Shown one piece after another: positions 12,034-38,394 of a stretch of 64,000 nucleotides of DNA (position 1 is its first letter; the number at the start of each line of letters is the position of its first letter). Below the pieces are notes generated by a model. It worked only from the letters and a program-made list of their open reading frames with translations. It made no database searches and was not told where the DNA came from. The DNA is from Candidatus Sumerlaeia bacterium. GTDB taxonomy: Bacteria > Sumerlaeota > Sumerlaeia > SLMS01 > JAHLLQ01. The translations under genes and the position numbers were made by a program. The DNA is taken from contig JAHCAW010000001.1 in NCBI GenBank assembly GCA_019634695.1, positions 48,328 through 112,327 on the forward strand, written 5' to 3'.

Positions 12034-13572
12034 TCACACGTAGCTGTGCAGGCCGGGCAGCAGGTAGTTGACTCCGAAGTAGGTGAACAGCACCGACACG
12101 AACCCGACGATCGCGACGATCGCCGCGCGGCGACCGCTCCAGCCCGCAAGGTAGCGCACGTGCAGATAGATCGCGTAGACGAGCCATGTGATCGCCGACC
12201 AGGTTTCCTTCGGGTCGAAGCCCCACGGGCGTCCCCATGCCGTCGCGGCCCACACGGCGCCGAAGATGATCCCGATCGTCAGCAGCGGGAAGCCGACGCC
12301 GATGATGCGATAGTTGAAGACGTCCATCGCGCGCAGGGTCGGCAGGCGGCGCGCCAGCAGGCCCGCGCCCTCGTCGCCGCCCAGCACGTACGACTTCACG
12401 AGATACAGGCCGGCGACGAAGAACGACAGCGCGAAGGCCGAGTAGCTGAGCATGATCGTCACGACGTGGTACGTCAGCCAGCTCGACTGGAGCGCCGGCA
12501 TGAGCGGGCGGATCTGGCTGTCGAAGATCGGCGCCTTGTGCGCGATCACCATGAAGATGAAGCCCAGGATCGCGGCGCCGAGCCCGACGGCGCGCACCAG
12601 TTTCATGGCCTCGAGGATCAGCGCGACGAGCACCATGCCGGCGATGGCGAAGGTGAAGGATTCGTACATGTTGGACAGCGGCGCGCGTCCGCCCAGCATC
12701 CAGCGCGCGACGATGCCGACGAGCTGCTCGACGAAGCCCAGCGACAGCAGGACGAACCCGATGCGGTTCCAGCGCTCGCGCGCCATCATCAGCGCCGCGC
12801 CGTAGACGAGCGCCGCGAGCAGGCAGAACATCGCGGACTTCTGGAAGGGCTTGTGCGTGTGGTAGAAGAGGTCGAGCTTCATGCGGCTGGTGGAGATGCC
12901 GTGGCCGAGCGCTGCGAGCTCGACGGCCTGCACGAGTTCGCGGGCGGCCTGGGTGCCGGCGGCGGCGTCGTCGGTCGCCAGGGCCCGCCGCAGCGCGCTC
13001 CACTGCTCGACGATGCGCTCGTCGAGCGAGTCGAGGTTGCCTTCGCGGGCGGCCTCGTCGGCGTCGAGCCACGTGCCCTCGCGCGGCACGATGGCGAACT
13101 CGCCGGCGACGTTCTCGATCAGGCCGGCGCGGTACTCGATGCTGTTGAGCACCTTGAGCCACTTGTCCTGGTCCTCGTGCAGCAGCGCCACGAGCGCGTC
13201 GCGGTATTGCATGTCGCGCCACTGGGCGACGGAGACGCGCGGCGCGTCGTAGAGGCGGACGAGCTCGGGGTGCGAGAGCTTGATGAGCGGCGCGTGCGCG
13301 CCCGCGTGCGGGTTGCGCATGAGGCCGAGCATCGTCTCGAGCGGCTCGCGCCCCTCGATGCGCGGGCGGCCGGCGATCGCCGAGATGTAGCTCTCGGAGA
13401 ACGTGTGCCCCGCGCGCACGAAGCCGGTGTCCTGCACCGGCAGGCGACGCAGCGCCGTCACCGCCTCGCGCCACTCGGGGCCAAGTCCCAGCGTGGCCGG
13501 CTGCGCGGAGGCGCCCGAGGCAAACAATACTGCCAGAATCAGTGCGACAAGGTGCGTGAACGTCGATTTCAT
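12034..13572 (-). CDS. ccsA: Cytochrome c biogenesis System II protein CcsA/ResC with an N-terminal periplasmic extension of about 230 aa
   Basis: Carries the Trp-rich heme-handling motif WGRPWGFDPKETWSAITWLVY and multiple TM helices. It follows ccsB with a 4-nt overlap. Confidence 0.9.
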   Translation of the reverse strand: MKSTFTHLVALILAVLFASGASAQPATLGLGPEWREAVTALRRLPVQDTGFVRAGHTFSESYISAIAGRPRIEGREPLETMLGLMRNPHAGAHAPLIKLSHPELVRLYDAPRVSVAQWRDMQYRDALVALLHEDQDKWLKVLNSIEYRAGLIENVAGEFAIVPREGTWLDADEAAREGNLDSLDERIVEQWSALRRALATDDAAAGTQAARELVQAVELAALGHGISTSRMKLDLFYHTHKPFQKSAMFCLLAALVYGAALMMARERWNRIGFVLLSLGFVEQLVGIVARWMLGGRAPLSNMYESFTFAIAGMVLVALILEAMKLVRAVGLGAAILGFIFMVIAHKAPIFDSQIRPLMPALQSSWLTYHVVTIMLSYSAFALSFFVAGLYLVKSYVLGGDEGAGLLARRLPTLRAMDVFNYRIIGVGFPLLTIGIIFGAVWAATAWGRPWGFDPKETWSAITWLVYAIYLHVRYLAGWSGRRAAIVAIVGFVSVLFTYFGVNYLLPGLHSYV

Positions 13573-15320
13573 TGCTCAGCCTCCTGAGGGGTGGGGGCGG
13601 GCGCGACGGCGTCGATGGCGGCGGTCGTCGTGCGGTCGAACTCTTCGGACGGGTGGCGATAGTGCGCCGCCACGAGCAGCTCCTGCGACTTGTCGTCGAC
13701 CAGGAACCAGACGTCGCGTCGGCGGACGAAGAAGCCCATATACAATCCGATCATCATCAGCGTGCAGCCGGCGTAGATGGTGGGGATGATCGGATTGCGC
13801 GTCAGCGACAGGACGGTGGCGTAGGCGGGGACGCGCGGGCCGGCGCGGACGATCCAGCCCGGCTCCTGCGCGGCCGCGGCCAGCGCCGCCTCCTCCGCTT
13901 CGTCTTCCGTCGGTTCGTTCGTGGCCAGCATCGCCTTCTCGCCCAGGCCCAGCACCACGCGCCCGAGCAGCACGTTGTCGTGTCCGTCCGTCACCTCGAC
14001 GACGAACACCGGCCCGTCGTCGGTCAGGTCGAAGTCGACCAGCTCCATGCGGAAGTGCGCGTCGGTCGCATGCGAGAAGCTCTTCATGTCGGCGCGATGG
14101 AACAGCCACTGGCGAGCGGCCGGCGCGCCGTCGCTCAGCAACGTGACGCGCACCGCGGGATTGTTCGGCTCGGTGGAGCGACTCGTCGCCTGCCGATCCG
14201 CGCCCATCACAAAGTCGGGCTCGTAGCGATCGACGAGCACCTCGAGTTCCGAGCCATGGCTGTGCGCCGCGCCCAGCGAACCCGCACCCACCTCGACGCC
14301 GCCCTGCATCACGCGCCAGCGCATCGCCGCGTCCACCGACAGCGTGTGCCCGGGCATCCCCGGCAACGCGCGCGTCTGGCCAAGGGTCATTTGCAGCACG
14401 ATCGGCGCGGACGATCCCGGCGGCGTCACCTCGACCTCGTGCCGCGCCACGCCCTGCATCTCTTGGTAACTCGTCTGGTGGGCCCGCCAGCCCAGCAGCC
14501 GCGGCGAGTGATTCACCTCGACCGGCCCCGCGTAGATCGGCTGCGTGCCGCGCGTCGCCGTGATCTGCGAAATGTAGTGCGACGGAATCCGCGTGCGCGG
14601 GAAGAAGCCCGTGTCGAAGTCGTCGATCGTGATCGTGAAGCCCAGCGGCACCTCGGCATTCGTGCCGCGCATCCGCATCGTCGTCGTCGATCCACCCTCG
14701 ATCACCTGGATGTAGCCCTCCTTCGCCACCCAACTGGCGACGAAGCCGGCCAGCAGCACGACGATCAGCCCGACGTGCGACACCGGCGCGCCCCAGCGCC
14801 CCAGCCACCCGCTGCGCGCCATCCCGGCGTTGCCCTCGACCTTGACCTCGAAGCCCCGGCGCCGAAACGACTCGGCCACCTCGGCGACACCACCGGTGTA
14901 TTGCCGGCGCATCGCCAGCGACGCCGCGCGGAAGAACGCCGGCTGGTCGTGCACCCGCAGCGTCCGCGACGGCAGCAACTTCTGAATGATGTTCTGCGTC
15001 GTCGCGCAGCCCATGTTGACGGCCAGCGCCAGCAGCAGCAGCTTGAACCACCAGGTATAGTAGATGACTGCCTGCGCCCGTTCGAGCGGATCGATGAGCG
15101 TGCCGACGATCGAGGCGATCGTCAGGATCACCAGCAGGACAATGCCGACCTTGAGGGAGAAGAACCACTTCCACGGCGACCGATACCAGATGCGGTCGGC
15201 GTCGACGGCTTGGCCGTTGCCGTTTGTTGGCAGGGGTGTCTGGCGCCGGCGGCGTTCGGGACGCGCCGGGGCCTGAGTGACGGGTTCGCTCGCAAGGGGG
15301 GGAGGAGGGGCGGCGCTCAT
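13569..15320 (-). CDS. ccsB: Cytochrome c biogenesis System II protein CcsB/ResB
   Basis: The segment WYRSPWKWFFSLKVGIVLLVILTIASIVGTLI plus a large periplasmic domain and C-terminal TM helices fit ResB. The start was chosen at MSAAPPPP. Confidence 0.9.
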   Translation of the reverse strand: MSAAPPPPLASEPVTQAPARPERRRRQTPLPTNGNGQAVDADRIWYRSPWKWFFSLKVGIVLLVILTIASIVGTLIDPLERAQAVIYYTWWFKLLLLALAVNMGCATTQNIIQKLLPSRTLRVHDQPAFFRAASLAMRRQYTGGVAEVAESFRRRGFEVKVEGNAGMARSGWLGRWGAPVSHVGLIVVLLAGFVASWVAKEGYIQVIEGGSTTTMRMRGTNAEVPLGFTITIDDFDTGFFPRTRIPSHYISQITATRGTQPIYAGPVEVNHSPRLLGWRAHQTSYQEMQGVARHEVEVTPPGSSAPIVLQMTLGQTRALPGMPGHTLSVDAAMRWRVMQGGVEVGAGSLGAAHSHGSELEVLVDRYEPDFVMGADRQATSRSTEPNNPAVRVTLLSDGAPAARQWLFHRADMKSFSHATDAHFRMELVDFDLTDDGPVFVVEVTDGHDNVLLGRVVLGLGEKAMLATNEPTEDEAEEAALAAAAQEPGWIVRAGPRVPAYATVLSLTRNPIIPTIYAGCTLMMIGLYMGFFVRRRDVWFLVDDKSQELLVAAHYRHPSEEFDRTTTAAIDAVAPAPTPQEAEQ

Positions 15321-15512: not shown

Positions 15513-16571
15513 CTAGCGGCGGTAGTCGCGTTCGCGGTGACAGGGTGTGGCGCAGGTGCCCCCCGTCTCGGTGACGTCGAATCGCAGCTCACCCTCCCAG
15601 GCGCCGAAGGTAATCGAGGATCGAATCAGGTGTGGCGTGTCAGTCGCATGGGCAGTGTGACAGACGTGGCACGCTCGCCCGCGCTTGAGCTGCAGGACGT
15701 GGACGCGATGGAGGTTGTCGCGGCCGTTGCGGAACCGCGTGGCGGCGCCGGCCGGATGTGCTTCGACCAGGGACGGCTCGTGGCATTGCCAGCACAGCCC
15801 ATAGTTCTCGCGGCGGTAGGTCTCATAGGCACCGGTCGGGTAATTGTCCTTCAGAAGGCTCGGCTGCATCGACCCATGCGGCGTGTGACAGGCGTGGCAC
15901 AGTGCCTCGCGCAGCGGTGGATGCACGACGGCCAGCTCGCGGATTTCGCGGCCGACGTTTTCCAGACGGCGACCGTGCGACTGGATCGCCATGTCGTGGC
16001 AGGTGAGGCAGGTCTCTCCCAGATTGGCGCGCATGTAGCCGGAGCCGGCGCCCTGATGCGCATGGTGACAGGAGCCGCATTCGCCGGCCGGATCGAAGTG
16101 CCCGTGACGATGCGGGCGTTCGGCGGCACGGGCCAGGTCTTCGGCGTGGCACTCGGCGCAGGAAGTCAGGTGCTGCTCGGTGCGCAGCAGATTGCGGACG
16201 GTGCTGCGATGGGGCTCGTGACAGGAGGTGCAGGACTGGGCGCCGGGCGGGTGCGCGACGTGGTTCCCGGCGACTTCGATGTCGGTGTGACAGGCAAGGC
16301 ACACTTGGGGCTGTGGCTTGGTGATCGGGGCCTTGGAATCGGGCGCATGGTCGCCGTGGCAGCGGTCGCACCACTGCTCGAGGAAGGCGGGGTGATCGAT
16401 GGCGCCGGGCTGGCGCGGCGGTGTCGGATGACAGTCGCTGGCCGTGCAGGACTTGTTGTAATGCGTGTCGTTGGGGGCGCCGACGCCGCTGCGGGCAAGG
16501 CCCAGGGCGCCGATGGCGGCGGCCAGCACCAGCACGACGGCGCGCTTGCGCGGCCCGGCGGGGGTCTTCAT
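15513..16571 (-). CDS. Periplasmic multiheme cytochrome c with 11 motifs (9 CXXCH + N-terminal CX4CH + C-terminal CX3CH)
   Basis: Start at MKTPAG with a strong GGAGGGAGGGAGGAG RBS and a signal peptide. Motifs are CTASDCH, CDRCH, CLACH, CTSCH, CAECH, CGSCH, CLTCH, CHACH, CWQCH, CHVCH and CATPCH. It is a paralog of 31054..32391. Confidence 0.9.
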   Translation of the reverse strand: MKTPAGPRKRAVVLVLAAAIGALGLARSGVGAPNDTHYNKSCTASDCHPTPPRQPGAIDHPAFLEQWCDRCHGDHAPDSKAPITKPQPQVCLACHTDIEVAGNHVAHPPGAQSCTSCHEPHRSTVRNLLRTEQHLTSCAECHAEDLARAAERPHRHGHFDPAGECGSCHHAHQGAGSGYMRANLGETCLTCHDMAIQSHGRRLENVGREIRELAVVHPPLREALCHACHTPHGSMQPSLLKDNYPTGAYETYRRENYGLCWQCHEPSLVEAHPAGAATRFRNGRDNLHRVHVLQLKRGRACHVCHTAHATDTPHLIRSSITFGAWEGELRFDVTETGGTCATPCHRERDYRR

Positions 16572-16708
16572 CTCCTCCCTCCCTCCTCGGGGGAACCCTT
16601 CTTGCTCCTTGGGGGAGGCAAGCGGGTCCACGTCCGGTCAGTCCCCGTTCTTGTAGCAAGCCGCTCTCCATCGGGCGCGAACGGGGTCCACCCAAGGAAG
16701 GTCACGTG

Positions 16709-18295: not shown

Positions 18296-19914
18296 ATGGC
18301 ACCGATCGACAGCCGTCCACGCACCCGTCCGGCCAGCTCCCGCAGCAAGAGCGCTCCAAAGCTCTCCTTGCCTGAGGGGCCCGGTGTGACAGACAAGTCA
18401 CACCACGACGCCGCCAAGAGGTCCCGGACGGCCATGCAGGCTTCCCACGCTCCCGCCTTCGCGTCTCCCCATGGCATGATGGGCGAGCTGCCGCCGCCAT
18501 TGCGCCTCTATCTCGACGCCCAGCCGCGCCGCGTCCGCATGTTTGCAGAAGACCTTCGCGTAATCTGGTGCAACCGCCCCGACGGCCTCGAGGATCGCCT
18601 GCGCTTCCCCGCCCCCGACGGGCCGACCGTTCCGGCAACCGGCAGCGACCGCGAGCGCTGGCCGGTCACCCGGGTTCTGGAGGGAGCGCCTCGCGCCTCG
18701 CGCCTCTACACCGTCCAGCATCTGCCCGAAGGATGCCAGCGCCCCGAGTTCGCCTTCCTGCGCGTCACCGCCTGGCCGATCCAGACGCCGCATGGCCTGC
18801 TCGTCATCGAGGAGACCGAGACGGTCGACGCGCCCGAGGAGGACGCGCATCGTCTCGGCCACCTCGACCAGAGCATCGAGGATCTGCTGCACCATGTGTT
18901 GACCGGCTTGAACCGTGGGGCCGACGTGCCGCACCTGCGCCTGGAGAATCCGGCGGTCGAAGTTTGCGACGGCGTGCGGCGCTGCACGGGCGAATCGTGC
19001 GCCGGCAACGGGCGTTCGCGCTGCTGGGAGCTGTCCCAATTGACGGCGGCCGAGCGCGAAGCCGCCGGCCTGCTCGAGCACTTCGAGGCGTGCAGTCGTT
19101 GCCCGGTCTTCGGGGCTGCCTCGCCCGATCCGCTTATCCGCATCTCGGAGAACTTCAACCGGCTGCTGTCGCTGCTCGAGGTCAAGCACGCCGAGAGCCT
19201 GGACGTTCAGCACCGCATGCAGCAGGCCGACAAGCTGGCCATCATGGGCGAGCTGCTGGCCAGCATCGCGCACGAGATCAAGAACCCTCTGGGCATCATC
19301 ATCGGGCGGATCGACGTCCTGGGCCTTGAGATGGACGCCATCACGCCCGGAGAACTCGCCGGCGACCTGCGCACCATTCAGGACCAAGCCGACCGCGTGC
19401 GCCAGATCGTCGACCACCTGCTGCGCATGGCCCGCCCCGAGCCCCCGGACTTCCACCCGGTGAACCTCAATGCCGTCGTCAACGACTGCCTGGCGATGGT
19501 GCGCAAGAACCTCACCGACCGCCGCATAGCGGTCGTCACGCGGCTGGCACCCGAGCTGCCCGACATTCAGGCCGACCGCATCCAGATGCAGCAGGTGCTG
19601 CTGAACCTGATCCTGAACGCGCGCGACGCGATGGACGAGGGCGGCAAACTGACGATCGCGACCAGTCTCGACGTGCCGCATCCGGCAGGCGTGCGCGTGG
19701 TGGTGTCGGACACCGGCATCGGCATCCCGGCCGATCGGCTGACGAAGCTCTTCTCCTCGTTCCACACGACGAAGCTCGAGCGCGGCGGCACGGGCCTGGG
19801 CCTGGCGGTCTGCCGCCGCATCATGGCGGCGCATCATGGCCGGATTCACGCCGAGAGCGTCGCCGGCCGCGGCACGACGATGCGCCTGTGGCTGCCCGTC
19901 GACAGGAGGGTCGC

Positions 19915-19918: not shown

Positions 19919-21396
<1,478 letters not shown>

Positions 21397-26870: not shown

Positions 26871-26890
26871 CTGTGACCGGGCTGTCACAG
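26871..26890. promoter_or_regulatory. Perfect palindrome CTGTGAC-N6-GTCACAG upstream of the NHL/cytochrome operon
   Basis: Lies in the 466-nt non-coding gap between the terminator and the NHL gene. It has the same core as 18383-18404. Confidence 0.45.
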
Positions 26891-31053: not shown

Positions 31054-32391
31054 ATGAACAGCCCCCTGACGCGATTCAGCCTCCTGCTGGCGATCACCCT
31101 GCTCGCGCTGGCGCTGCAAGGCCCGGCGCGCGCCAACACGCAGATCACGCTCGGCGCCTCGTGCGTGACCGGCGAGTGCCACGGCGACGTGACCGCGCAT
31201 CAGTTCCTGCACGGCCCCGTCAACCTGAAGCAGTGCCAACCCTGCCACGAACCCATCGGCGGCCGGCACGAGTTCGCACCGCTGACCGACAGTCGCAGCC
31301 TGTGCATCACCTGCCACGAGGTGGACCAACCGAAGGCCTTCGTCCATGGACCGTTTCAGACCGACTGCGTGGTCTGTCACAGTCCGCACGGCGACTCGAA
31401 CCGGCACTTCGTCAAGGGGGGCGAGGGAGCGGCCTCGTGCACCATGTGCCATGACAGCGTGACGCGCGGCATGACGCACCTGCACGGGCCGGTGGCCGTC
31501 GGCGAGTGCCTCGTCTGCCACGAGCCGCACCAGTCGAACCACAAGGGCCTGCTGATCGACGCGCGCCCGCAGCTCTGCATGGGATGTCACATCGACGTGG
31601 CGCACGAGATCGAGCGCGCGGTGGTCGTGCACCAGCCGGTCGAGATGGAATGCGCCGGCTGCCACAATCCGCACGGCGGCACGGCGGCGTTCTTCCATCC
31701 GGCCGAGGGCCCGGACCTGTGCCGCTCGTGCCATGGCGGCTTCCTCGAGGAGGCCATGCAGGCTCCCTTCCCGCACGGCGCGATGACCGAAGGCAAGGCC
31801 TGCCAGAATTGCCACGCTCCCCATGCCTCGGCCCAGCAGGGCCTGCTTGGCACGGACACGATGGACCTTTGTCTCTCGTGCCACAGCTCCGAGATTCGCC
31901 ATGCACGCGGCACGATTCCCAACATCGCGGCGCAGCTTTCCTCGGCGACGTTCCTGCACGGTCCGATCAGCGAGCGCAACTGCGTCGCCTGCCACAAGGC
32001 GCACGGCTCCGACGTCGCCAGCATCCTGACGAAGCCCTTCCCGCGCGAGTTCTACGCGCCCTACAAGGAGGGTGCCTACGACATGTGCTTCGAGTGCCAC
32101 GACAACACGCTTGTGCTGAACGAGCGCAGCACCGCCACGCAGTTCCGCGACGGCGACCGCAACCTGCACTTCCTGCACGTCAATCGCGAGAAGGGGCGCA
32201 CCTGCCGGGCCTGTCACTCCGAGCACGCCTCCGTGCAGCCCCACCACGTTCGCACCGAAGTTCCGTTCGGCCGCTGGATGATGAAGGTCCAGTTCACGAA
32301 GACGGAGACCGGCGGAACGTGCGAGACGGGCTGCCACATTCCGTACGGGTACGACCGCGTGCGGCCGGCGGCGGGGAGCACGACGCCATGA
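31054..32391 (+). CDS. Periplasmic multiheme cytochrome c with 15 motifs (13 CXXCH + N-terminal CX4CH + C-terminal CX3CH)
   Basis: Has a signal peptide, then CVTGECH, 13 CXXCH and a final CETGCH. The C-terminal block RDGDRNLHFLHV..CRACH..TGGTCETGCH parallels that of 15513..16571. Confidence 0.9.
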   Translation: MNSPLTRFSLLLAITLLALALQGPARANTQITLGASCVTGECHGDVTAHQFLHGPVNLKQCQPCHEPIGGRHEFAPLTDSRSLCITCHEVDQPKAFVHGPFQTDCVVCHSPHGDSNRHFVKGGEGAASCTMCHDSVTRGMTHLHGPVAVGECLVCHEPHQSNHKGLLIDARPQLCMGCHIDVAHEIERAVVVHQPVEMECAGCHNPHGGTAAFFHPAEGPDLCRSCHGGFLEEAMQAPFPHGAMTEGKACQNCHAPHASAQQGLLGTDTMDLCLSCHSSEIRHARGTIPNIAAQLSSATFLHGPISERNCVACHKAHGSDVASILTKPFPREFYAPYKEGAYDMCFECHDNTLVLNERSTATQFRDGDRNLHFLHVNREKGRTCRACHSEHASVQPHHVRTEVPFGRWMMKVQFTKTETGGTCETGCHIPYGYDRVRPAAGSTTP

Positions 32392-33218
32392 TGCGACTGC
32401 GCTCGGCGCGGAACCATCGCGAGGCCCTGCTCGCCGGCATGCTGGCGTTGCTGCTGGCCGTGGCGACGGGTCGGCCAGCCGTCGGCGATCTCGTGCCGCC
32501 ACTCGATGGCGCGGGAATCGTCGTGAAGGCGATGCCGAAGGATGCGCCGACGACCGGGCCGGTGGTGCTCGTCTTCCTGAAGCCGGGCGATGCGCACGCG
32601 GCTCGGATCGTCGAGGACCTGCATGCGCTGCGCGGGCGCGACGAGCGCCTGGCGCGGTCCAGCTCCGTTGTGGCGATCATCTCGCGCTTTCCGGGCGGGG
32701 GAGCGCCGGCTCTGCCGACCTTTCCGAAGGACTGGCGCGTTCTGCACGACACGCAGGACACGCTCTACACGGCCTATCGGATCATCGCGACGCCGAGCGT
32801 GGCAGTTGTCGGAAGCGACAAGCGGCTGGTCGGGTTCCACCCGGGATACGGACCGGCGCTGGCCGCGGCGATTCGGCGCGACCTGATGCTGGCGATCGAC
32901 GGTGCCGGTGCACTGGTGACTCCGACGCCCTCGCGCGACGGCATGAACGTGCAGATGGGTCGGGCACTGGCGCGGCGCGGTCTGTGGGAGCGCGCGCTGG
33001 GCTACTATCGCAAGGCGGCCGAGGAAGGCGAACTCTCCGCCGAGGCGCAGCTCGAGATGGCCACGCTGCACCTGGAGCTGGGCGAGCGCGACGACGCGCT
33101 GCGTCTGCTCGAGGCACTCGCGCCCGCTCACGCGAACCTGCCCGGCATCGAGGATCTGCGCCGCCGATTGACCGAGTCCGTGGAGACGCCGCTCCCGAAA
33201 CCGCCACCCGTGCCGTGA
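32388..33218 (+). CDS. Exported thioredoxin-fold (TlpA-like) protein lacking the CXXC site, fused to C-terminal TPR
   Basis: Its start forms an ATGA overlap. It has a signal/anchor segment. VVLVFLKPGDAHAAR occupies the position where redoxins have WCxxC, and the TPR-like tail is LARRGLWERALGYYRKAAEEG. Confidence 0.6.
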   Translation: MMRLRSARNHREALLAGMLALLLAVATGRPAVGDLVPPLDGAGIVVKAMPKDAPTTGPVVLVFLKPGDAHAARIVEDLHALRGRDERLARSSSVVAIISRFPGGGAPALPTFPKDWRVLHDTQDTLYTAYRIIATPSVAVVGSDKRLVGFHPGYGPALAAAIRRDLMLAIDGAGALVTPTPSRDGMNVQMGRALARRGLWERALGYYRKAAEEGELSAEAQLEMATLHLELGERDDALRLLEALAPAHANLPGIEDLRRRLTESVETPLPKPPPVP

Positions 33219-33254: not shown

Positions 33255-35306
33255 ATGCTTCCCCGTCCACTCCTCGCGCTCGCCGCTGTCGTCCTGCTGC
33301 TCGGCATGACCAGCGTGGCCCGTGCGCAGGCGGACCGCTTTCGCCGCGAGTATCCCGTGCAGGCCCTTGCCGTCACGGACACCGACGCGGAACTGGGCAT
33401 CGAATACAACTACTTCGGCGAGACGATCCGGCGCTCCGGCGGCGGACGCCTGCGCTACTCGAACCACTTCCTGCAGGAATACTACCAGGGGCGCGCGCGT
33501 GGATACATCTACCATCCGCGGCTGCTCACCTACTCGGCGCAGGTGCGCCTTGGGCTTTCGCAGCAATGGCTGCGTCGCGACTCCGACGGCGACAGCTCCT
33601 CGTCGTTCGACAACGATGAGCTGCTGGGCTACGACCTGCGCCTGGACTTCTTCAAGGACCACCCGCTGAGCGGCAGCGTCTTCGCACGTCGCGACGAGCG
33701 CATCCTGATGGGCCTGTTCGTGGACCGCTATCTCGTGCGCACCGAAGCCCAGGGCGGCACGCTGCGGTGGAAGAACGACATCGCTCCGATGAACCTGAGC
33801 GTCACGCGCTCGAAGGTCGAGGAGTTCGGCATCAACAGCCACAGCACCACGCTGACCGACACGCTCGAGTACAACCTGCGCCACGACATCGGCCGCCGCA
33901 GCCGCACCGACGTGCAGGCGCGCGTGCAGAGCATCGAGCGCGACTTCGAGGCGGAAACCTTCCGTGGCCGCGTCGAGCGCGAGACCGAACTCGACACGCG
34001 CACCCTCCAGGCCACCAACCGCCTGAATCTCGACGCGCAGGGCCGCAGCACCCTGCGCTCCACAGTGCGATACCACCAGCAGCGCAACGGGCAGGACCTG
34101 ACCACGCTCTATTGGCAGGAGCGCCTCCAGCTCCAACACTCGCGCAACCTGCGCAGCTACGCCGAGGCGAGCTTCCTGCGCAACGAGTACTCCGACGGGC
34201 GCAAGAACGACACCTATCGCGCCGAGATCGGCGTCGATCACCAGCTCTACGAGAGCCTGCGCACGCACTTCGACATCCATGGCCGGCGCACGGTGGCCCA
34301 GATCACCGAAGAGGATCGCTACGGCGCGACGGCGCAGCTTCAGTACCGCAAGAAGACGGGGCTCGGCGTGTTCAGCGCCGGCTTCTCGAAGACGCTCGAC
34401 CAGGTGGAGCGCACCGGCGGCGCGGCCTCGGACGACATCCTCGACGAGGCGCTGACGCTCTTCATCGCCGTGCCGACGTTCCTCGGCCGCGGCGACGTCA
34501 TCGCCCCCAGCATCGTCGTCACCGACGTGACGAACACGATCATCTACACCGAAGGGTTCGACTACGAGATCGTGCGGCAGGGTCGGCGCACGGGCCTGCG
34601 CATCGTGCCGGGCGGCCTGCTGGCCGACGGCGACCAAGTGCTCGTGGACTATCGCATCGAGGTGGACGGCGACGTCTCCTACATCGCCGACGACCAGACG
34701 ATCTACCTGCGGCACGACTTCGAACGCGGGATCAAGGGACTGTCGCTCTACGCGCAGCGCCACGACCTGCGGGCCCGACGCATCGACGCGGCCGACGACT
34801 TCGGCATCGTCGAGTTCACCGACCAGATGGTCGGCCTGCGGCAGGAGTGGCGCCAGTTCGCGTTCGTGAGCGAGTATCAGGAGTTCGACGACGACCTCGG
34901 CGGGTTCACGCAGTGGCGCAACCGGCTGGAGGGAAACCATCGGCTCAGCTCGCGCACGCGCCTTGGCTGGAACGTCGGCATCAACAAGACGGACTACAGC
35001 TCGAACCGCGACATCAGCGGTCAGGACGAGAGCGACTATCGCTTCGCCGGCGTGTTCGTCGATGGGCGCTTCTCGAACCGCGGCTTCTGGCGCGTGGAGG
35101 CGCGGACGATGCGCGAGACGGGGCGGACGGAGAGCACCACGAACGGCGTGCTGGCGCGTGCGGGCTTCGAGTGGCGCCGCATGACCATCGAGGGCGGCGC
35201 GCGCTTCGAGCAGTACGAGGTCTTCGACACCGAGCGCGACCGCGTGCACGTCTTCGTGCGGATGCGTCGCAGCCTGGGCCGCCGCCCGATGGAGGGCCGC
35301 CGATGA
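33255..35306 (+). CDS. Candidate outer-membrane beta-barrel (porin-like) protein, 683 aa
   Basis: The signal peptide is MLPRPLLALAAVVLLLGMTSVARAQ. The protein has no Cys or heme motifs. It shows long runs of alternating hydrophobic/polar residues rich in Y, R, D and G (LRYSNHFLQEYY, TLEYNLRHD, AEIGVDHQLY), and its cluster context fits. The fold is not verified. Confidence 0.55.
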   Translation: MLPRPLLALAAVVLLLGMTSVARAQADRFRREYPVQALAVTDTDAELGIEYNYFGETIRRSGGGRLRYSNHFLQEYYQGRARGYIYHPRLLTYSAQVRLGLSQQWLRRDSDGDSSSSFDNDELLGYDLRLDFFKDHPLSGSVFARRDERILMGLFVDRYLVRTEAQGGTLRWKNDIAPMNLSVTRSKVEEFGINSHSTTLTDTLEYNLRHDIGRRSRTDVQARVQSIERDFEAETFRGRVERETELDTRTLQATNRLNLDAQGRSTLRSTVRYHQQRNGQDLTTLYWQERLQLQHSRNLRSYAEASFLRNEYSDGRKNDTYRAEIGVDHQLYESLRTHFDIHGRRTVAQITEEDRYGATAQLQYRKKTGLGVFSAGFSKTLDQVERTGGAASDDILDEALTLFIAVPTFLGRGDVIAPSIVVTDVTNTIIYTEGFDYEIVRQGRRTGLRIVPGGLLADGDQVLVDYRIEVDGDVSYIADDQTIYLRHDFERGIKGLSLYAQRHDLRARRIDAADDFGIVEFTDQMVGLRQEWRQFAFVSEYQEFDDDLGGFTQWRNRLEGNHRLSSRTRLGWNVGINKTDYSSNRDISGQDESDYRFAGVFVDGRFSNRGFWRVEARTMRETGRTESTTNGVLARAGFEWRRMTIEGGARFEQYEVFDTERDRVHVFVRMRRSLGRRPMEGRR

Positions 35307-35397: not shown

Positions 35398-35569
35398 AAC
35401 TGTGGCTCGGGCGTCCCGCCCGAGTTCCGCCACGCCACGCGCATGGTGCCGATGCCTGCGTTCTGGCGTACCTCCTCCTATATGGATTCCAACAGGCTGT
35501 CTTGTAGCGCGTGACGTCCACTACTTGGCGAGATTCCCGGAACTCGGGCGAGACGCCCGAGCCACAGTT
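35398..35569. repeat. 32-nt inverted repeats (31/32 match) flanking a 108-nt lower-GC spacer; each arm contains its own 8-bp hairpin
   Basis: The arm aactgtggctcgggcgtcccgcccgagttccg (35398-35429) matches the reverse complement of 35538-35569. The internal hairpin is ctcgggcg-N3-cgcccgag. Confidence 0.75.
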
Positions 35570-35629: not shown

Positions 35630-36700
35630 GTGACGCGCGCGCTGGCACTGCTTGCGCTGCTCCTCGTGCTGGCTTCGTGCGCCGGCACGCGTCGCGATCC
35701 GTTTGCGACGACGGCGGGAATCGCTCCCGTCTGGCCTCCGCCGCCCGAGCCGCCGCGCGTGGAGCATGTGCTGTCGATCGCCGACCATCGCGATCTGTTC
35801 GAGGAAGGTGGTTTCGGCCGGTCGCTGGCACGCCTTGTCGGTGGCCCGGTCGACTCGCGGCTTGTGCGGCCCTATGCCATCGCGGTGGATGCGAAGCTCG
35901 GGCTGCTGGTGACGGATCCGGGCAATCAGTGTGTGCATCGGTTCGACTGGGACTCGCGGCGCTATCGCCGGATTGGCGAGTCGTTGGCGGGCGGCCTGCC
36001 GTCGCCTGTCGGCGTGGCTGTCGCGCGGGACGGGTCGATTCTCGTGGCGGATTCACGCCTCGCATCGATCGAACGATTCAGCTCCGACGGGCGCCATCTT
36101 GGACGCTTCGCGCCGGGACATCCATTCCGTCGGCCGGCTGGCATCGCCGTCGATGAAGCGAGCGGCGAGGTCTACGTTGCCGACGTGCTCGCGCATCAGG
36201 TGCTGGTCTTCGGCGCCGACGGGGCGTTGCAGCGCGCGCTGGGCGGCAACGGCAGCGCACCGGGCCGGTTCAACTTCCCGACGCATCTCGGGCTGGACGG
36301 ATCGGGCGGGCTGCTGGTGGCCGACGGGATGAACTTCCGCGTGCAGCGCCTGGCGCGCGATGGCGCGGCGCTGACGGTGTACGGGCGCGTCGGCACGGCG
36401 CGCGGCGACTTCGCGCACCCCAAGGGCGTCGCCGCATGGGACGCGGAGACGTTCGTCGCGGTCGAGGGCCTGCACGACGCGCTGGTGTTGTTCGATGGAG
36501 AGGGCCGCCTGCTGCTGGCGATCGGCGAGGCGGGTTCGGGGCCGGGGCAGTTCTGGCTGCCGGCCGGACTCGCGGCGGACCGCGCGCGCGGCCTGCTCTT
36601 CGTCGCCGACAGTTTCAACAGTCGGGTGCAGGTGTTCCGCCTGCTGCCCGCGCCCGCCGTGTCCGACCCCGCGCAGGAAGAGAAAGGACCGACCCCATGA
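35630..36700 (+). CDS. NHL-repeat beta-propeller lipoprotein (second copy)
   Basis: GTG start and lipobox VLASC. Blades include GLLVTDPGNQCVHRFD, GSILVADSRLASIERF, GEVYVADVLAHQVLVF, GLLVADGMNFRVQRL and GLLFVADSFNSRVQVF. Confidence 0.8.
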   Translation: MTRALALLALLLVLASCAGTRRDPFATTAGIAPVWPPPPEPPRVEHVLSIADHRDLFEEGGFGRSLARLVGGPVDSRLVRPYAIAVDAKLGLLVTDPGNQCVHRFDWDSRRYRRIGESLAGGLPSPVGVAVARDGSILVADSRLASIERFSSDGRHLGRFAPGHPFRRPAGIAVDEASGEVYVADVLAHQVLVFGADGALQRALGGNGSAPGRFNFPTHLGLDGSGGLLVADGMNFRVQRLARDGAALTVYGRVGTARGDFAHPKGVAAWDAETFVAVEGLHDALVLFDGEGRLLLAIGEAGSGPGQFWLPAGLAADRARGLLFVADSFNSRVQVFRLLPAPAVSDPAQEEKGPTP

Positions 36701-38394
36701 ACCGCCTGCCGCTTCTCGCGCTGGGGGCGCTGCTCGTTGTCCTCGCAACGCGGGGCCTCACGCAGACCAGCATCGTCGATACGCCGCACAACCTCTCGTC
36801 GAGCGGCCCCGGCGCCATCCGCGCGCTCGACGAGGATCGCGTCTGCGTCTTCTGCCACACGCCGCACGGCGCGCGCACCGAGGCGCCGCTGTGGAATCGA
36901 CGCGACTCGAGCGCCACCTATCAGCCCTACGACAGCCCCACGCTCGTCGCGCGACCGGGCCAACCCACCGGCTCCTCGAAGCTCTGCCTCTCGTGCCACG
37001 ACGGCACCGTCGCGCTCGGCGATCTCGTCTCGCAGTCGACGCCGATCGACTTCGCCGGCGGCACGCGCATGCCGGCCGGTCGCTCGCTCATCGGCACGGA
37101 CCTGCGCGACGATCATCCCATCTCCTTCGCGTACTCCGACGCCCTGTCGGGCGGCAGCGCACGCCTGGCCGCGCCGCACTCCTGGGACCCGGCCATCCAG
37201 CTCGACGCCGCCGGCATGCTCCAGTGCACCACCTGCCACGATCCGCACGACAACCAGTGGGGGCGCTTCCTCGTCATGCACAACGCCGAGGCCCGCCTTT
37301 GCCGCGAGTGCCACATCATGCCCGAGTTCGACAACACGCCGCACGCGCTGTCGAACGCCACATGGAACGGCGTCGGCACGACGCCGTGGCCGCACACGGA
37401 GTTCGACAACGTGGCGACCAACTCGTGCCTGAACTGCCATCGCTCGCACCACTCGCCGCGCGGCCAGCACCTGCTGACCGGCGCCACCGACGCGGCCACC
37501 TGTCTGGCGTGCCACGACGGCAGCGTCGCGCGCTCCAACGTCCAGGTCGCCCTGCGCAAGCCCCATCGCCATCCGGTGCTCGAGACGTCGGCCGCGCACG
37601 TGCCGGGCGAGGTCCTCACCGGTTTCGCCGATCACGTCACCTGCTCGGACTGCCACAGCCCGCATCACATGACGACGTCGAAGGCCGACGCGCCGATGGT
37701 GCCCGGCACGATGACCGGCGTCTCCGGCGTGACGATCGACGGCACGCCGATCGCCGAGGCGATGTTCGGCTACGAGGTCTGCCTGAAGTGCCATGCCGAC
37801 GACGCCTCGGCCACCTTCCGCGGCATCGAGCGCCAGGTGCGGTCCAACGGCGTGCGCCGCGCGTTCGCCTCCGACAGCCCCTCGTTCCATCCCGTGGCGT
37901 TCACGGGCCGGAACCCGGACGTGCCGAGCTTGATCGCGCCGCTGAACGAGCAGTCCCAGATCGCGTGCACGGATTGCCACGGCGACGACGCGACGGCGCC
38001 GGGCTCGGGCGCCGCCGCCCCGCACGGCTCGCAGCACGAGTTCCTCCTGCGGCGCGAGTACCGCACCGGCTCGCGGGTCTCCGAGAGTCCGACGGCCTAC
38101 GCGCTTTGCTACGGCTGCCACGACCGGTCGGTCGTGCTCAGCGACCGCAGCTTCGTGGGCCATCGCCGCCACGTCGTCGACGAGCGCACGCCCTGCTCGG
38201 CCTGCCACGACGCGCACGGCATCGACGGCGCCGCCGGCAACGCGGTCAACAACGCGCGCCTGATCAACTTCGACCTGTCGGTCGTCTCGCCGCTGCCGCT
38301 GACGGGCGAATTGGAATACGTCTCGCACGGCTCGGGAACGGGCTCGTGCACACTCAACTGCCACGGCAAGGACCACAACCGGCAGGACTACTGA
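36697..38394 (+). CDS. Periplasmic/secreted multiheme cytochrome c with 12 motifs (11 CXXCH + terminal CX3CH)
   Basis: Its start forms an ATGA overlap with the NHL gene, and it has a signal peptide. Motifs are CVFCH, CLSCH, CTTCH, CRECH, CLNCH, CLACH, CSDCH, CLKCH, CTDCH, CYGCH, CSACH and CTLNCH. Confidence 0.9.
   Translation: MNRLPLLALGALLVVLATRGLTQTSIVDTPHNLSSSGPGAIRALDEDRVCVFCHTPHGARTEAPLWNRRDSSATYQPYDSPTLVARPGQPTGSSKLCLSCHDGTVALGDLVSQSTPIDFAGGTRMPAGRSLIGTDLRDDHPISFAYSDALSGGSARLAAPHSWDPAIQLDAAGMLQCTTCHDPHDNQWGRFLVMHNAEARLCRECHIMPEFDNTPHALSNATWNGVGTTPWPHTEFDNVATNSCLNCHRSHHSPRGQHLLTGATDAATCLACHDGSVARSNVQVALRKPHRHPVLETSAAHVPGEVLTGFADHVTCSDCHSPHHMTTSKADAPMVPGTMTGVSGVTIDGTPIAEAMFGYEVCLKCHADDASATFRGIERQVRSNGVRRAFASDSPSFHPVAFTGRNPDVPSLIAPLNEQSQIACTDCHGDDATAPGSGAAAPHGSQHEFLLRREYRTGSRVSESPTAYALCYGCHDRSVVLSDRSFVGHRRHVVDERTPCSACHDAHGIDGAAGNAVNNARLINFDLSVVSPLPLTGELEYVSHGSGTGSCTLNCHGKDHNRQDY

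What the first reader, a model, noticed from the sequence alone, without database searches (positions are those of the whole stretch)
12034..38394. About 26-kb multiheme cytochrome / NHL-propeller / barrel supercluster: candidate extracellular electron-transfer conduit with its own maturation genes and sigma54 control
Almost every gene in this span is cytochrome-related. On the minus strand an 11-heme cytochrome heads a string with ccsB, ccsA and a Skp-like chaperone. Divergent from it sit an ImcH-like 3-TM 7-heme protein, a cytoplasmic kinase and a sigma54 activator. Next comes an 18-heme secreted giant. A co-directional run follows at 25655-38394: receiver-like protein, 4-heme, NHL lipoprotein, 5-heme lipoprotein, 11-heme + cytochrome-b fusion, 15-heme, CXXC-less thioredoxin-fold/TPR protein, 683-aa barrel candidate, second NHL lipoprotein and 12-heme. 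I count 75 CXXCH plus 8 CX3CH/CX4CH motifs, so 83 putative hemes in 8 proteins. Two quinol-oxidoreductase-like inner-membrane entry points, periplasmic multihemes, lipoprotein cytochromes and an outer-membrane barrel follow the logic of Geobacter/Shewanella porin-cytochrome conduits. However, the parts list (two NHL propellers, a duplicated giant, a dead thioredoxin) and the gene order do not match Mtr, Pcc (OmaB/OmbB/OmcB) or Ext clusters as I know them. No catalytic terminal-reductase subunit (molybdopterin, Fe-S, Cu) is encoded. The direction of electron flow, reduction versus uptake/oxidation, cannot be told from sequence.
Basis: partly seen in the sequence, partly recalled or inferred. 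Interest (0 to 1): 0.9.

Follow-up and report, generated by a model that had tools for sequence, protein, structure and literature searches.

The report
OmcE-type cytochrome nanowire locus, Sumerlaeota
This 27-kb stretch of an uncultured Sumerlaeota bacterium encodes a complete, sigma-54-regulated route for moving respiratory electrons out of the cell, and its outer part matches the recently described OmcE "cytochrome nanowire" gene cluster of Geobacter rather than an unknown kind of conduit.

Summary
I recount 75 CXXCH plus 8 CX3-4CH motifs in the same eight proteins, and nearly every gene call is confirmed by profile searches.

This is an extracellular electron-transfer (EET) locus with no catalytic reductase, but it does match a known system. 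The 216-aa tetraheme protein is a full-length homologue of the OmcE nanowire subunit (PDB 7TFS, E=1e-21), with all four CXXCH motifs and all four distal histidines invariant.

The other parts also fit the published minimal omcE cluster:
- two NHL lipoproteins;
- an 11-heme and a 15-heme cytochrome, both homologous to the Geobacter omcE-locus 11-heme protein;
- a 683-aa protein modelled as a roughly 28-strand barrel (pLDDT 86);
- adjacent ResB/CcsA.

These features go beyond that minimal cluster:
- a CbcL-like quinol dehydrogenase sits inside the operon;
- an ImcH-like protein and a kinase/sigma-54 activator pair lie alongside;
- a tandem OcwA-like 2x9-heme protein is present;
- a 12-heme protein has an N-terminal domain that is a second complete OmcE module.

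The order from the OcwA-like gene to the 12-heme gene is the same in six Sumerlaeota genomes; the genes further upstream were seen in only two. A core version occurs in Acidobacteria and Calditrichaeota genomes. A sigma-54-type promoter and a palindromic upstream site are conserved.

Verdict: new variant of a known kind. Filament formation is inferred, not shown.

The parts
11384..12004 (-).
   Evidence: PF03938 OmpH, E=2.7e-21, 76.7 bits against a cut-off of 32.4; ORF read
12034..13572 (-). CcsA-type cytochrome c synthase (system II) with a roughly 250-aa N-terminal periplasmic extension of unknown function
   Evidence: TIGR03144, 254 bits against a cut-off of 188; PF01578. 44% identical to the CcsA of the Geobacter omcE locus
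13569..15320 (-). ResB (CcsB) heme-handling protein, system II
   Evidence: PF05140, E=1.4e-48. Homologous to the ResB of the Geobacter omcE locus
15513..16571 (-). Secreted 11-heme cytochrome (9 CXXCH + 2 CX3-4CH), paralogue of the 15-heme protein
   Evidence: 36% identical (E=9e-49) to the 370-aa 9+2-heme cytochrome of the Geobacter omcE locus
16591..16606 (+). Sigma-54-type -24/-12 candidate (GGGAAC-N5-TTGCT) about 100 bp upstream of the ImcH-like gene
   Evidence: A matching site, TGGAATCTTTCTTGCT, sits at the same place in the most divergent Sumerlaeia locus, L014
16706..18289 (+). ImcH-like inner-membrane cytochrome: 3 TM helices, NapC/NirT-type region, 7 heme motifs
   Evidence: PF03264, E=2e-11; TIGR03153 NrfH, weak; TM helices and heme map
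18296..19918 (+). Cytoplasmic histidine kinase. Contains a second copy of the GTGAC-N6-GTCAC palindrome at 18386-18401
   Evidence: HisKA plus HATPase_c; no TM helix; palindrome
19915..21396 (+). Sigma-54-dependent response regulator (receiver, AAA+ and HTH_8 domains)
   Evidence: PF00158, E=1e-71; PF00072; PF02954
21718..25581 (+). Secreted 18-heme protein: tandem duplication of an OcwA-like nonaheme module joined by a Pro/Thr linker
   Evidence: Halves 54% identical over 615 aa. Weak match to Thermincola OcwA, PDB 6I5B, E=1e-5. The module is single in L007/L014
25655..26110 (+). Stand-alone receiver-like protein. Contains an embedded sigma-54-like motif at 25943-25959
   Evidence: PF00072, E=4e-5, below the cut-off. 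tblastn matches at this position in five of the six Sumerlaeota loci, and an unverified 161-aa gene there in the sixth. Motif
26114..26764 (+). OmcE-homologous tetraheme cytochrome, the candidate nanowire subunit. Followed by a terminator-like hairpin (stem-loop 26824-26836 and T-run; the hairpin read by eye extends from about 26810)
   Evidence: PDB 7TFS, E=1.3e-21, and 9YUQ, E=9e-20, both full length. Four CXXCH and His38/57/137/187 are invariant in 42 homologues, including Geobacter OmcE. Hairpin
26873..26888 (.). Palindrome GTGAC-N6-GTCAC, candidate binding site for the sigma-54 activator
   Evidence: Two copies in the window against 0.12 expected. Present at the same place in L003, L005 and L006, and with one mismatch in L002 and L004
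27173..27188 (+). Sigma-54-type promoter GGGCACGATCCTTTCA, 43 bp upstream of NHL1
   Evidence: Identical in L002, L003 and L006 and one base different in L004 and L005, within otherwise unalignable spacers
27231..28337 (+). NHL beta-propeller lipoprotein 1
   Evidence: PF01436; lipobox LLTGC; homologous to the Geobacter omcE-locus NHL lipoprotein, E=5e-29
28334..28930 (+). 5-heme probable lipoprotein cytochrome
   Evidence: LAASC lipobox. Conserved in the Acidobacteria and Calditrichaeota loci
28932..31031 (+). CbcL-like quinol dehydrogenase: signal peptide, 11 c-heme motifs, six-TM b-type domain
   Evidence: Architecture as described for CbcL in PMC9129911
31054..32391 (+). Periplasmic 15-heme cytochrome, MtrA-like, candidate barrel-inserted rod
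   Evidence: PDB 6R2Q chain A, E=5e-11. 36% identical (E=4e-57) to the Geobacter omcE-locus 370-aa cytochrome
32388..33218 (+). Secreted protein with C-terminal TPR repeats. The N-terminal domain is unassigned and the thioredoxin fold is not verified
33255..35306 (+). Outer-membrane beta-barrel of about 28 long strands, with a conserved inserted domain at residues 391-470
   Evidence: AF2 mean pLDDT 85.6, pTM 0.73. Foldseek: the 50 best PDB matches listed are all outer-membrane barrels, with MtrB best by TM-score at 0.41. Invariant columns cluster in the insert
35398..35569 (.). 172-nt element with 32-nt inverted-repeat arms in a 323-bp gap that relatives lack
   Evidence: RNA fold -100.7 kcal/mol, z=-8.4
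35630..36700 (+). NHL beta-propeller lipoprotein 2
   Evidence: PF01436, E=9e-27; lipobox VLASC; E=4e-41 to the Geobacter NHL lipoprotein. Start inferred
36697..38394 (+). 12-heme cytochrome: a complete N-terminal OmcE module (residues 7-206) plus a 360-aa, 8-heme extension. Candidate filament base or adaptor
   Evidence: 7TFS, E=8e-29; 9YUQ, E=7e-27. 39% identical to the 4-heme protein. The extension has no PDB relative. Large family

Best explanation
The locus encodes a sigma-54-regulated EET system of a diderm Sumerlaeota bacterium. Its extracellular end is an OmcE-type polymerising cytochrome.

Proposed path:
1. Menaquinol is oxidised at the inner membrane by the ImcH-like and CbcL-like cytochromes.
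2. Electrons pass to the periplasmic 11-heme, 15-heme and 5-heme cytochromes.
3. They cross the outer membrane through the roughly 28-strand barrel. The MtrA-like 15-heme protein probably sits inside it, and the two NHL propeller lipoproteins probably help.
4. They leave on a filament of the tetraheme OmcE homologue. The 12-heme protein carrying its own OmcE module may join the barrel conduit to the filament. The OcwA-like 2x9-heme protein may be an additional surface reductase.

Support functions: ResB/CcsA attach the hemes and Skp serves the barrel. The kinase and sigma-54 activator drive the operons from conserved -24/-12 promoters.

Shown here: homologies, domain architectures, the barrel fold, synteny, and conserved promoter and palindrome elements.

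Inferred: polymerisation, the order of the carriers, the role of the 12-heme protein, and outward electron flow.
For: OmcE homology:
- The 4-heme protein matches 7TFS (E=1.3e-21) and 9YUQ (E=9e-20) over their full lengths.
- All eight heme-ligating histidines and the four CXXCH motifs are invariant across 42 homologues, including Geobacter OmcE.
- The 12-heme protein contains a second full OmcE module.

Match to the published omcE cluster signature, tested against the real G. sulfurreducens locus:
- the 11-heme and 15-heme proteins match its 9+2-heme cytochrome (E=9e-49 and 4e-57);
- both NHL proteins match its NHL lipoprotein (E=5e-29 and 4e-41);
- CcsA and ResB are adjacent in both loci.

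Barrel: AF2 pLDDT 85.6, and Foldseek finds only outer-membrane barrels.

Inner-membrane entry points.

Synteny:
- The eleven genes from the OcwA-like gene to the 12-heme gene keep the same order in six Sumerlaeota genomes, with barrel identity of 39-73%.
- The upstream block of ResB, the 11-heme gene, the ImcH-like gene, the kinase and the activator was checked in two of them. It is complete in L014. The 11-heme and ImcH-like genes are missing in L013.
- The core (OmcE-like, NHL, 5-heme, homologous barrel, NHL, 12-heme, 15-heme) recurs in an Acidobacteria and a Calditrichaeota genome. A third locus of unknown taxon carries much of it, but there the barrel, 5-heme and 15-heme counterparts did not pass the tblastn test. 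Sigma-54 activators are adjacent in two of the three loci.

Regulation:
- The 16-mer GGGCACGATCCTTTCA is conserved in five other genomes inside unalignable spacers.
- The GTGAC-N6-GTCAC palindrome occurs twice against 0.12 expected.
Against: - No filament has been observed for this protein or for any Sumerlaeota.
- The OmcE-like tetraheme family is very large, with thousands of hits. The paper read here describes experimentally determined filament structures for only two members (G. sulfurreducens and D. soudanensis), so homology does not prove polymerisation.
- The barrel shows no detectable sequence similarity to the 752-aa candidate barrel of the Geobacter locus (hhalign probability 0.4%).
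- No clear counterpart of the Geobacter 8-heme cytochrome was found.
- The candidate promoters deviate from the canonical GC at -12. A plain consensus scan of the window finds no more sites than chance.
- rpoN was not seen in the window.
- The AF2 model of the OmcE homologue without hemes was unusable (pLDDT 53).
Confidence: 0.68

Rival explanations
1. This is a porin-cytochrome conduit without a filament. The OmcE-like proteins act as monomeric or small oligomeric surface cytochromes docked on the barrel, as MtrC docks on MtrAB. This is essentially the reader's reading.
For: - The barrel's best structural match by TM-score is MtrB (0.41).
- The 15-heme protein resembles MtrA.
- The OmcE-like family is huge and mostly uncharacterised.
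- The 12-heme fusion could serve as the surface cytochrome on its own.
Against: - All residues that ligate hemes in OmcE filaments, including the N-terminal histidine, are invariant.
- The gene set is the one used in the literature to pick out nanowire-competent OmcE homologues.
- The small subunit gene is followed by its own terminator-like hairpin. That layout resembles genes for abundant structural subunits.
Confidence: 0.2
2. The same hardware runs inward. It takes up electrons from Fe(II), reduced minerals, cathodes or partner cells and feeds them to the quinone pool or to periplasmic acceptors.
For: - Sequence cannot give direction.
- NHL-propeller and multiheme clusters were linked to electron uptake in Desulfovibrio ferrophilus IS5 (PMC5815863).
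- Sumerlaeota genomes carry aerobic terminal oxidases (PMC8092238).
Against: - The two inner-membrane components have the architectures of ImcH and CbcL. In Geobacter these are quinol oxidases for outward transfer.
- No Cyc2- or MtoA-type iron-oxidation marker was found in the window.
Confidence: 0.1
3. This is a periplasmic reductase system for a soluble substrate (nitrite, hydroxylamine or sulfur oxyanions), centred on the OcwA-like or octaheme-like modules.
For: OcwA-type nonahemes belong to the NrfA/octaheme reductase fold class (own knowledge). The search gave a very weak match to an octaheme nitrite reductase (E=1).
Against: - No NCBIfam equivalog (Nrf, Otr, HAO) reaches its cut-off.
- The barrel, the lipoproteins and the OmcE homologues have no role in such a system.
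- The OcwA-like gene is absent from the cross-phylum core.
Confidence: 0.03

Closest known systems
omcE nanowire gene cluster of Geobacter sulfurreducens (GSU0618 region) and Desulfuromonas soudanensis WTL (PDB 7TFS, 9YUQ; bioRxiv 10.1101/2025.10.22.684050)
   Same: - A tetraheme OmcE-family subunit with identical heme-ligand pattern.
- NHL beta-propeller lipoprotein(s).
- A homologous 9+2-heme cytochrome.
- A large barrel with no Pfam match.
- resB/ccsA immediately adjacent.
- Glycosyltransferase genes (GT4 and PMT-type) nearby.
   Different: - The subunit is only 33-35% identical.
- The barrel is not sequence-related.
- There is no clear 8-heme partner.
- Extra genes are present: a CbcL-like protein inside the operon, a 5-heme lipoprotein, a TPR protein, a receiver-like protein, an OcwA-like 18-heme protein and a 12-heme OmcE fusion.
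- An ImcH-like gene and a kinase/sigma-54 activator pair are attached.
- The host phylum, Sumerlaeota, is not among the five phyla listed in that paper.
osc (OmcS-companion) cluster of G. sulfurreducens (Shen et al. 2025, Cell Chem Biol; known here only through PMC13194489)
   Same: The concept is the same: a filament cytochrome gene accompanied by dedicated folding, secretion and morphology genes and by paralogous cytochromes.
   Different: OmcS is a hexaheme with no sequence similarity to OmcE. The primary paper could not be read, so no gene-by-gene comparison was made.
MtrCAB porin-cytochrome complex of Shewanella (PDB 6R2Q)
   Same: A large barrel (best TM-score, 0.41) and a periplasmic MtrA-like multiheme rod (E=5e-11).
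   Different: - There is no MtrC/OmcA decaheme.
- The decaheme family models score below their cut-offs.
- The barrel has no family match and more strands.
- The propeller lipoproteins and the OmcE modules have no Mtr counterpart.
Outer-membrane cytochrome clusters with NHL beta-propellers of Desulfovibrio ferrophilus IS5 (PMC5815863)
   Same: Multiheme cytochromes are encoded together with two NHL-repeat propeller proteins that are proposed to stabilise an outer-membrane complex.
   Different: No sequence comparison was made here. That study concerns electron uptake and does not mention OmcE homologues or a barrel.
ImcH and CbcL inner-membrane quinol dehydrogenases of G. sulfurreducens
   Same: The domain architectures agree. 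One has 3 TM helices, a NapC/NirT region and 7 hemes. The other has a periplasmic multiheme domain plus a six-helix b-type domain.
   Different: - The CbcL-like protein has 11 c-hemes where CbcL has 9.
- Orthology to GSU3259 and GSU0274 was not tested.
- Here the CbcL-like gene sits inside the outer-membrane/filament operon.
OcwA, the surface nonaheme cytochrome of Thermincola potens (PDB 6I5B)
   Same: Nine heme motifs per module and weak sequence similarity along the module.
   Different: E is only 1e-5. Here two modules are fused in tandem behind an extra N-terminal domain, and the host is a diderm.

Membership tests
OmcE-type cytochrome nanowire cluster | Tetraheme subunit homologous to OmcE, with four CXXCH motifs and four conserved distal histidines | tested here: met
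   7TFS, E=1.3e-21, full length. H38, H57, H137, H187 and all CXXCH motifs are invariant in 42 sequences, including Geobacter OmcE.
OmcE-type cytochrome nanowire cluster | Large outer-membrane beta-barrel encoded nearby | tested here: met
   AF2 pLDDT 85.6, about 28 strands. Foldseek hits are all outer-membrane barrels. There is no sequence similarity to the Geobacter 752-aa protein.
OmcE-type cytochrome nanowire cluster | Beta-propeller lipoprotein(s) in the cluster (two in the minimal clusters) | tested here: met
   Two NHL proteins with lipoboxes. Both are homologous to the Geobacter omcE-locus NHL lipoprotein.
OmcE-type cytochrome nanowire cluster | Two accompanying multiheme cytochromes | tested here: inconclusive
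   The homologue of the Geobacter 9+2-heme protein is present twice, as the 11-heme and 15-heme proteins (E=9e-49 and 4e-57). The 8-heme partner has only weak, repeat-level hits.
OmcE-type cytochrome nanowire cluster | The subunit polymerises into a filament with a continuous heme chain and inter-subunit His ligation | not testable with these tools
   The heme-less AF2 model had pLDDT 53. No multimer or heme-aware modelling was available.
MtrCAB-type porin-cytochrome complex | MtrA/DmsE-family decaheme, MtrB-family porin, and MtrC/OmcA-family surface decaheme | tested here: not met
   TIGR03508 scores 115 bits against a cut-off of 192, and TIGR03507 only 19 bits. The barrel has no Pfam or NCBIfam match. 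Only fold-level resemblance was found.
Pcc (OmaB/OmbB/OmcB) and Ext clusters of Geobacter | Homology of the porin, periplasmic and lipoprotein cytochromes to OmbB/OmaB/OmcB or to ExtA-L | not tested
NF041028 (GSU2203 family) matches were far below the cut-off.
ImcH family | Up to three TM helices, a NapC/NirT-like quinol site region, and seven c-heme motifs | tested here: met
   Three TM helices, PF03264 at E=2e-11, and seven motifs. Orthology to GSU3259 was not tested.
CbcL family | Periplasmic multiheme c domain fused to a six-helix diheme b-type domain | tested here: met
   Signal peptide, 11 CXXCH motifs and six TM helices. Weak matches to Ni_hydr_CYTB and FdnI. CbcL itself has nine c-hemes. 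Orthology to GSU0274 and b-heme ligation were not tested.
System II cytochrome c biogenesis | A ResB/CcsB and CcsA pair | tested here: met
   TIGR03144 above its cut-off; PF05140, E=1e-48.
Sigma-54-dependent two-component regulon | An activator with receiver, AAA+ and HTH domains, plus -24/-12 promoters and upstream activator sites at target operons | tested here: inconclusive
   The activator is clear. The conserved GGCACG-N4-TTTCA element and the GTGAC-N6-GTCAC palindrome are supported by comparison across genomes. However, -12 is TC rather than GC, the consensus scan is at chance level, and rpoN was not examined.

The most novel reading that the evidence does not exclude
The 12-heme protein, an OmcE module covalently fused to an 8-heme extension, may be the missing adaptor of cytochrome nanowires. 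In this reading it sits at the outer-membrane barrel, receives electrons from the periplasmic rod, and seeds or anchors the polymer of the 216-aa subunit through the OmcE-type histidine-swap interface. It is always encoded next to the second NHL propeller.

This would answer how OmcE-type filaments are initiated and wired to the cell. The authors of the D. soudanensis structure state that this question is open and that no such candidate is encoded in the OmcE operons they examined.

The family is widespread: 520 clusters at 50% identity score E<=1e-30. It co-occurs with OmcE-like genes in Sumerlaeota, Acidobacteria and Calditrichaeota genomes.
Probability: 0.3. Interest if true: 0.8.

Novelty: new variant of a known kind. 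Interest (0 to 1): 0.6.

Why it matters
Cytochrome nanowires have been solved structurally in only a few organisms. How they are secreted, anchored and fed with electrons is still unknown.

This locus puts every step in one regulon conserved across a phylum: quinol oxidation, periplasmic relay, barrel, propeller lipoproteins, filament subunit, heme attachment and a sigma-54 switch. It adds a subunit-like fusion protein that could be the anchor.

It extends OmcE-type clusters to Sumerlaeota, a widespread uncultured phylum. The main genomic survey read here describes that phylum through fermentation, oxidative phosphorylation and nitrite reduction, and no mention of extracellular electron transfer came up in it. 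The loci also show the same core in Acidobacteria and Calditrichaeota genomes. Mineral or electrode respiration by filaments may therefore be much more widely distributed than current lists suggest.

The compact gene set is also a natural candidate for heterologous reconstruction.

Tried and rejected
- AF2 of the OmcE homologue with a 42-sequence alignment gave pLDDT 53, as expected without hemes. No fold search was run on it.
- hhalign of the barrel family against the Geobacter 752-aa protein found nothing. Barrel homology between the two clusters therefore remains untested at the fold level. Non-window sequences could not be submitted for structure prediction.
- A plain sigma-54 consensus scan of the window was at or below chance. 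Only cross-genome comparison revealed conserved sites.
- The primary osc-cluster paper (PMC11845295) and the ImcH paper (PMC10601379) are not held.
- Exact look-up of the barrel protein returned only a 2.8-kb contig with no taxonomy.
- The C-terminal 359 residues of the 12-heme protein have no PDB sequence relative.
- The thioredoxin fold of the 276-aa protein was not detectable.
- The first genome scan, using the 27-sequence barrel alignment, failed for lack of conserved stretches. It succeeded with 13 sequences.
- Orthology to Nrf, Otr, HAO or ACIII was considered and rejected because no curated model reaches its cut-off.
- Recent horizontal transfer was considered, but GC content is uniform across the window.

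Full report

Yes. The window is about 69% G+C with no compositional break across the span. A six-frame ORF scan filtered on third-position G+C picks out one coherent gene set.

Pfam and NCBIfam confirm the following:
- a CcsA-type synthase (TIGR03144 above its cut-off) and ResB;
- a NapC/NirT-type region in the 7-heme protein;
- a HisKA/HATPase_c kinase;
- a receiver/Sigma54_activat/HTH_8 activator;
- a weak stand-alone receiver;
- two NHL propellers;
- TPR repeats in the 276-aa protein;
- a weak cytochrome-b signal in the 11-heme fusion.

A hydropathy scan shows three TM helices ahead of the seven hemes of the ImcH-like protein. It shows six TM helices behind the eleven hemes of the fusion. 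The giant protein is a tandem duplication, with halves 54% identical over 615 residues.

The Skp-like gene exists (OmpH, E=3e-21) but lies at 11384-12004(-), just outside the stated span. The thioredoxin fold of the TPR protein could not be detected. No molybdopterin, Fe-S or copper subunit is present.

**2.

The 216-aa tetraheme protein (26114-26764) aligns end to end with two OmcE nanowire subunits. These are G. sulfurreducens OmcE (PDB 7TFS, E=1.3e-21) and D. soudanensis OmcE (9YUQ, E=9e-20). I aligned 42 homologues, including Geobacter OmcE. The four CXXCH motifs and four further histidines (H38, H57, H137, H187) are invariant, as is the PLWN motif. This is the conservation pattern reported for OmcE homologues.

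Residues 7-206 of the 12-heme protein are a second complete OmcE module. The match to 7TFS is even better (E=8e-29), and the module is 39% identical to the small protein. The remaining 359 residues carry eight hemes and have no PDB relative.

**3. Match to the published cluster**

Petersen et al. [quoted passage not shown] In Desulfuromonadia these clusters lie next to resB/ccsB and are often followed by glycosylation genes.

I fetched the G. sulfurreducens locus and compared it protein by protein. Its gene order is ResB, CcsA, a 370-aa cytochrome with 9+2 heme motifs, a 330-aa 8-heme cytochrome, an NHL lipoprotein, OmcE, and a 752-aa protein with no family match.

Results for the window proteins:
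- The 11-heme protein, which also has 9+2 motifs, matches the 370-aa cytochrome at E=9e-49.
- The 15-heme protein matches the same cytochrome at E=4e-57.
- The two NHL proteins match the Geobacter NHL lipoprotein at E=5e-29 and 4e-41.
- CcsA and ResB match as well.

So the minus-strand operon (11-heme, ResB, CcsA, Skp) also has its counterpart in the Geobacter locus.

Two parts do not match. The barrel shows no sequence similarity to the 752-aa protein, and there is no clear 8-heme counterpart.

**4. The barrel**

The search of the 5.8-billion-protein collection found only 28 relatives. With 26 of them as the alignment, AlphaFold2 gives mean pLDDT 85.6 and pTM 0.73. The model has about 28 long antiparallel strands and a small inserted domain at residues 391-470. 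Many of the invariant columns lie in and around this insert.

Foldseek against the PDB returns only outer-membrane barrels in the 50 best matches listed: TonB-dependent receptors, LptD, FimD ushers and MtrB. All have probability 1.0, and MtrB has the best TM-score at 0.41.

**5. Organism and conservation**

All six genome loci found with the barrel alignment are Candidatus Sumerlaeota or Sumerlaeia MAGs, so the window is inferred to come from that phylum.

The gene order is identical in all six, at 39-73% barrel identity. The order is OcwA-like, receiver-like, OmcE-like, NHL1, 5-heme, CbcL-like, 15-heme, TPR, barrel, NHL2, 12-heme.

Two of these genomes were also read further upstream. The most divergent one also has the ImcH-like gene, the kinase, the activator and the divergent 11-heme/ResB operon. 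There the OcwA-like module is single. The closest named genome lacks the ImcH-like and 11-heme genes.

I also looked at three loci outside Sumerlaeota. The Acidobacteria and Calditrichaeota MAGs carry the core:
- OmcE-like genes (one or two copies);
- NHL;
- a 195-aa 5-heme protein;
- a homologous barrel (E=3e-37 and 2e-16);
- NHL;
- a 12-heme fusion homologue (42-43% identical over the full length);
- a 15-heme homologue.

The third locus, of unknown taxon, has the OmcE-like genes, both NHL genes and a 12-heme fusion homologue (44% identical). Its 660-aa, 276-aa and small neighbouring genes did not match the barrel, the 15-heme or the 5-heme proteins by tblastn.

Two of the three loci have an adjacent sigma-54 activator. 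The CbcL-like, TPR, receiver-like and OcwA-like genes are absent from all three, so they are Sumerlaeota additions.

An exhaustive HMMER search finds 520 clusters (at 50% identity) of the 12-heme family at E<=1e-30. Many are full length, and one is named as gammaproteobacterial.

The mBio survey of Sumerlaeota does not use the word heme. In the passages read, cytochromes appear only as terminal oxidases, and nothing on extracellular electron transfer came up. Sumerlaeota is also not among the five phyla listed for omcE clusters.

**6. Regulation**

A plain TGGCAC-N5-TTGCW scan of the window is at chance level. Comparison across genomes is more informative.

- In the 400-bp spacer between the OmcE-like gene and NHL1, the 16-mer GGGCACGATCCTTTCA lies at 27173-27188, 43 bp before the ATG. 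It is identical in three other genomes and differs by one base in two more. The surrounding sequence cannot be aligned. It reads as GGCACG-N4-TTTCA, a -24/-12 element with T in place of G at -12.
- About 285 bp upstream lies the palindrome GTGAC-N6-GTCAC. It is conserved at the same place in the relatives. It occurs only twice in the window against 0.12 expected, and the second copy is inside the kinase gene.
- A second -24/-12-like site precedes the ImcH-like gene in both the window (16591) and the most divergent relative.
- A third lies inside the receiver-like ORF, 155 bp before the OmcE-like gene (25943-25959). There the codons are unusually A/T-rich for this genome.
- Similar sites precede OmcE-like genes in the other phyla and in Geobacter.
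- Terminator-like hairpins follow the giant gene and the OmcE-like gene.

I rate sigma-54 control as likely but not proven.

**7. Mechanism**

Shown here: the homologies, domain architectures, barrel fold, synteny and conserved regulatory elements.

Inferred:
1. Menaquinol oxidation by the ImcH-like and CbcL-like proteins, by analogy with Geobacter.
2. Relay through the 11-heme, 15-heme and 5-heme cytochromes.
3. Passage through the barrel, with the MtrA-like 15-heme protein inside it.
4. Exit on a polymer of the OmcE homologue.

The 12-heme fusion is the obvious candidate for joining conduit and filament. Petersen et al. explicitly note that initiation, anchoring and termination of OmcE filaments are unexplained, and that no OmcE-like protein with extra hemes is encoded in the operons they examined.

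Each OmcE-type gene sits beside an NHL gene (OmcE-like then NHL1; NHL2 then 12-heme). The second pairing holds in every locus examined and the first in most of them. This hints at pairwise function. The OcwA-like protein may be an additional surface reductase.

Direction of flow cannot be read from sequence.

**8. Rival explanations**

- A filament-less porin-cytochrome complex remains possible. The paper read here describes experimentally determined filament structures for only two members of a very large family.
- Inward electron uptake is possible.
- A soluble-substrate reductase is unlikely.

**9. Verdict**

This is a real, coherent and conserved EET locus. It is not categorically new. It is an enlarged variant of the OmcE nanowire cluster in a phylum where that cluster has not been reported.

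Two features deserve follow-up. One is the OmcE-module fusion protein. The other is the inclusion of the inner-membrane quinol dehydrogenase in the same sigma-54 regulon.

Noticed in passing
window 35398-35569: A 172-nt element with 32-nt inverted-repeat arms (97% complementary) sits in a 323-bp gap between the barrel gene and NHL2. The RNA fold is -100.7 kcal/mol (z=-8.4) and is followed by UUUU. In the relative L013 these two genes overlap, so the gap looks like an insertion, either MITE-like or an intra-operon attenuator. There is a single copy in the window.
   Followed up: partly
window 25943-25959 (inside the receiver-like ORF 25655-26110): The motif GGAACGAAAATTGTATC is conserved at nucleotide level across Sumerlaeota loci and uses A/T-ending codons in a genome with GC3 near 0.9. 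It resembles a sigma-54 -24/-12 element about 155 bp upstream of the OmcE-like gene. Similar sites precede OmcE-like genes in L010, L012 and Geobacter L008.
   Followed up: partly
window 18386-18401: The second and only other copy of the GTGAC-N6-GTCAC palindrome lies about 90 bp inside the histidine kinase gene. L013 also has two copies near its kinase-like gene. This may reflect autoregulation by the activator.
   Followed up: partly
window 127-1254, 9441-10322, 40236-41957, 42733-44385, 48874-49836, 53689-55704: The flanks hold GT4 glycosyltransferases, two PMT_2 (GT39/ArnT-like) glycosyltransferases (one with TPR repeats), an epimerase and an ArsR-methyltransferase. Similar glycosylation gene sets follow omcE in Geobacter, where the filament appears to be glycosylated.
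   Followed up: no
window 38472-38664 (-): tRNA-Tyr(GTA) and tRNA-Thr(TGT) genes lie directly after the last gene of the cluster.
   Followed up: no
window 12034-13572 (-), residues 1-250: The CcsA-type protein carries a roughly 250-aa N-terminal extension with a signal-like start and no family match. The Geobacter CcsA is only 283 aa.
   Followed up: no
window 33255-35306, residues 391-470: Many of the invariant and near-invariant columns of the barrel family lie in a small inserted domain made of short strands, not in the barrel wall. This may be a plug or a docking site.
   Followed up: partly
L007/L014 and L013: The OcwA-like gene is a single 643-aa module in the most divergent Sumerlaeia genome, so the 18-heme duplication is lineage-specific. 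The closest named genome (L013) lacks the 11-heme and ImcH-like genes between ResB and the kinase-like gene.
   Followed up: partly
window 51749-52771 (-), 58517-61433 (-), 61022-62971 (+), 5596-7488 (-): Other genes in the window include a DDE_3 (IS630-type) transposase, PilT-like and PilB-like T2SSE ATPases, an HtrA-type protease with two PDZ domains, and a radical-SAM/SPASM protein with TPR repeats.
   Followed up: no
L011 697-3176; L012 9087-9707 and 14917-15558; L010 752-1414 and 10001-10630: The loci outside Sumerlaeota each carry two stand-alone OmcE-like genes in addition to the 12-heme fusion. Paralogous subunits therefore seem common in this cluster type.
   Followed up: no
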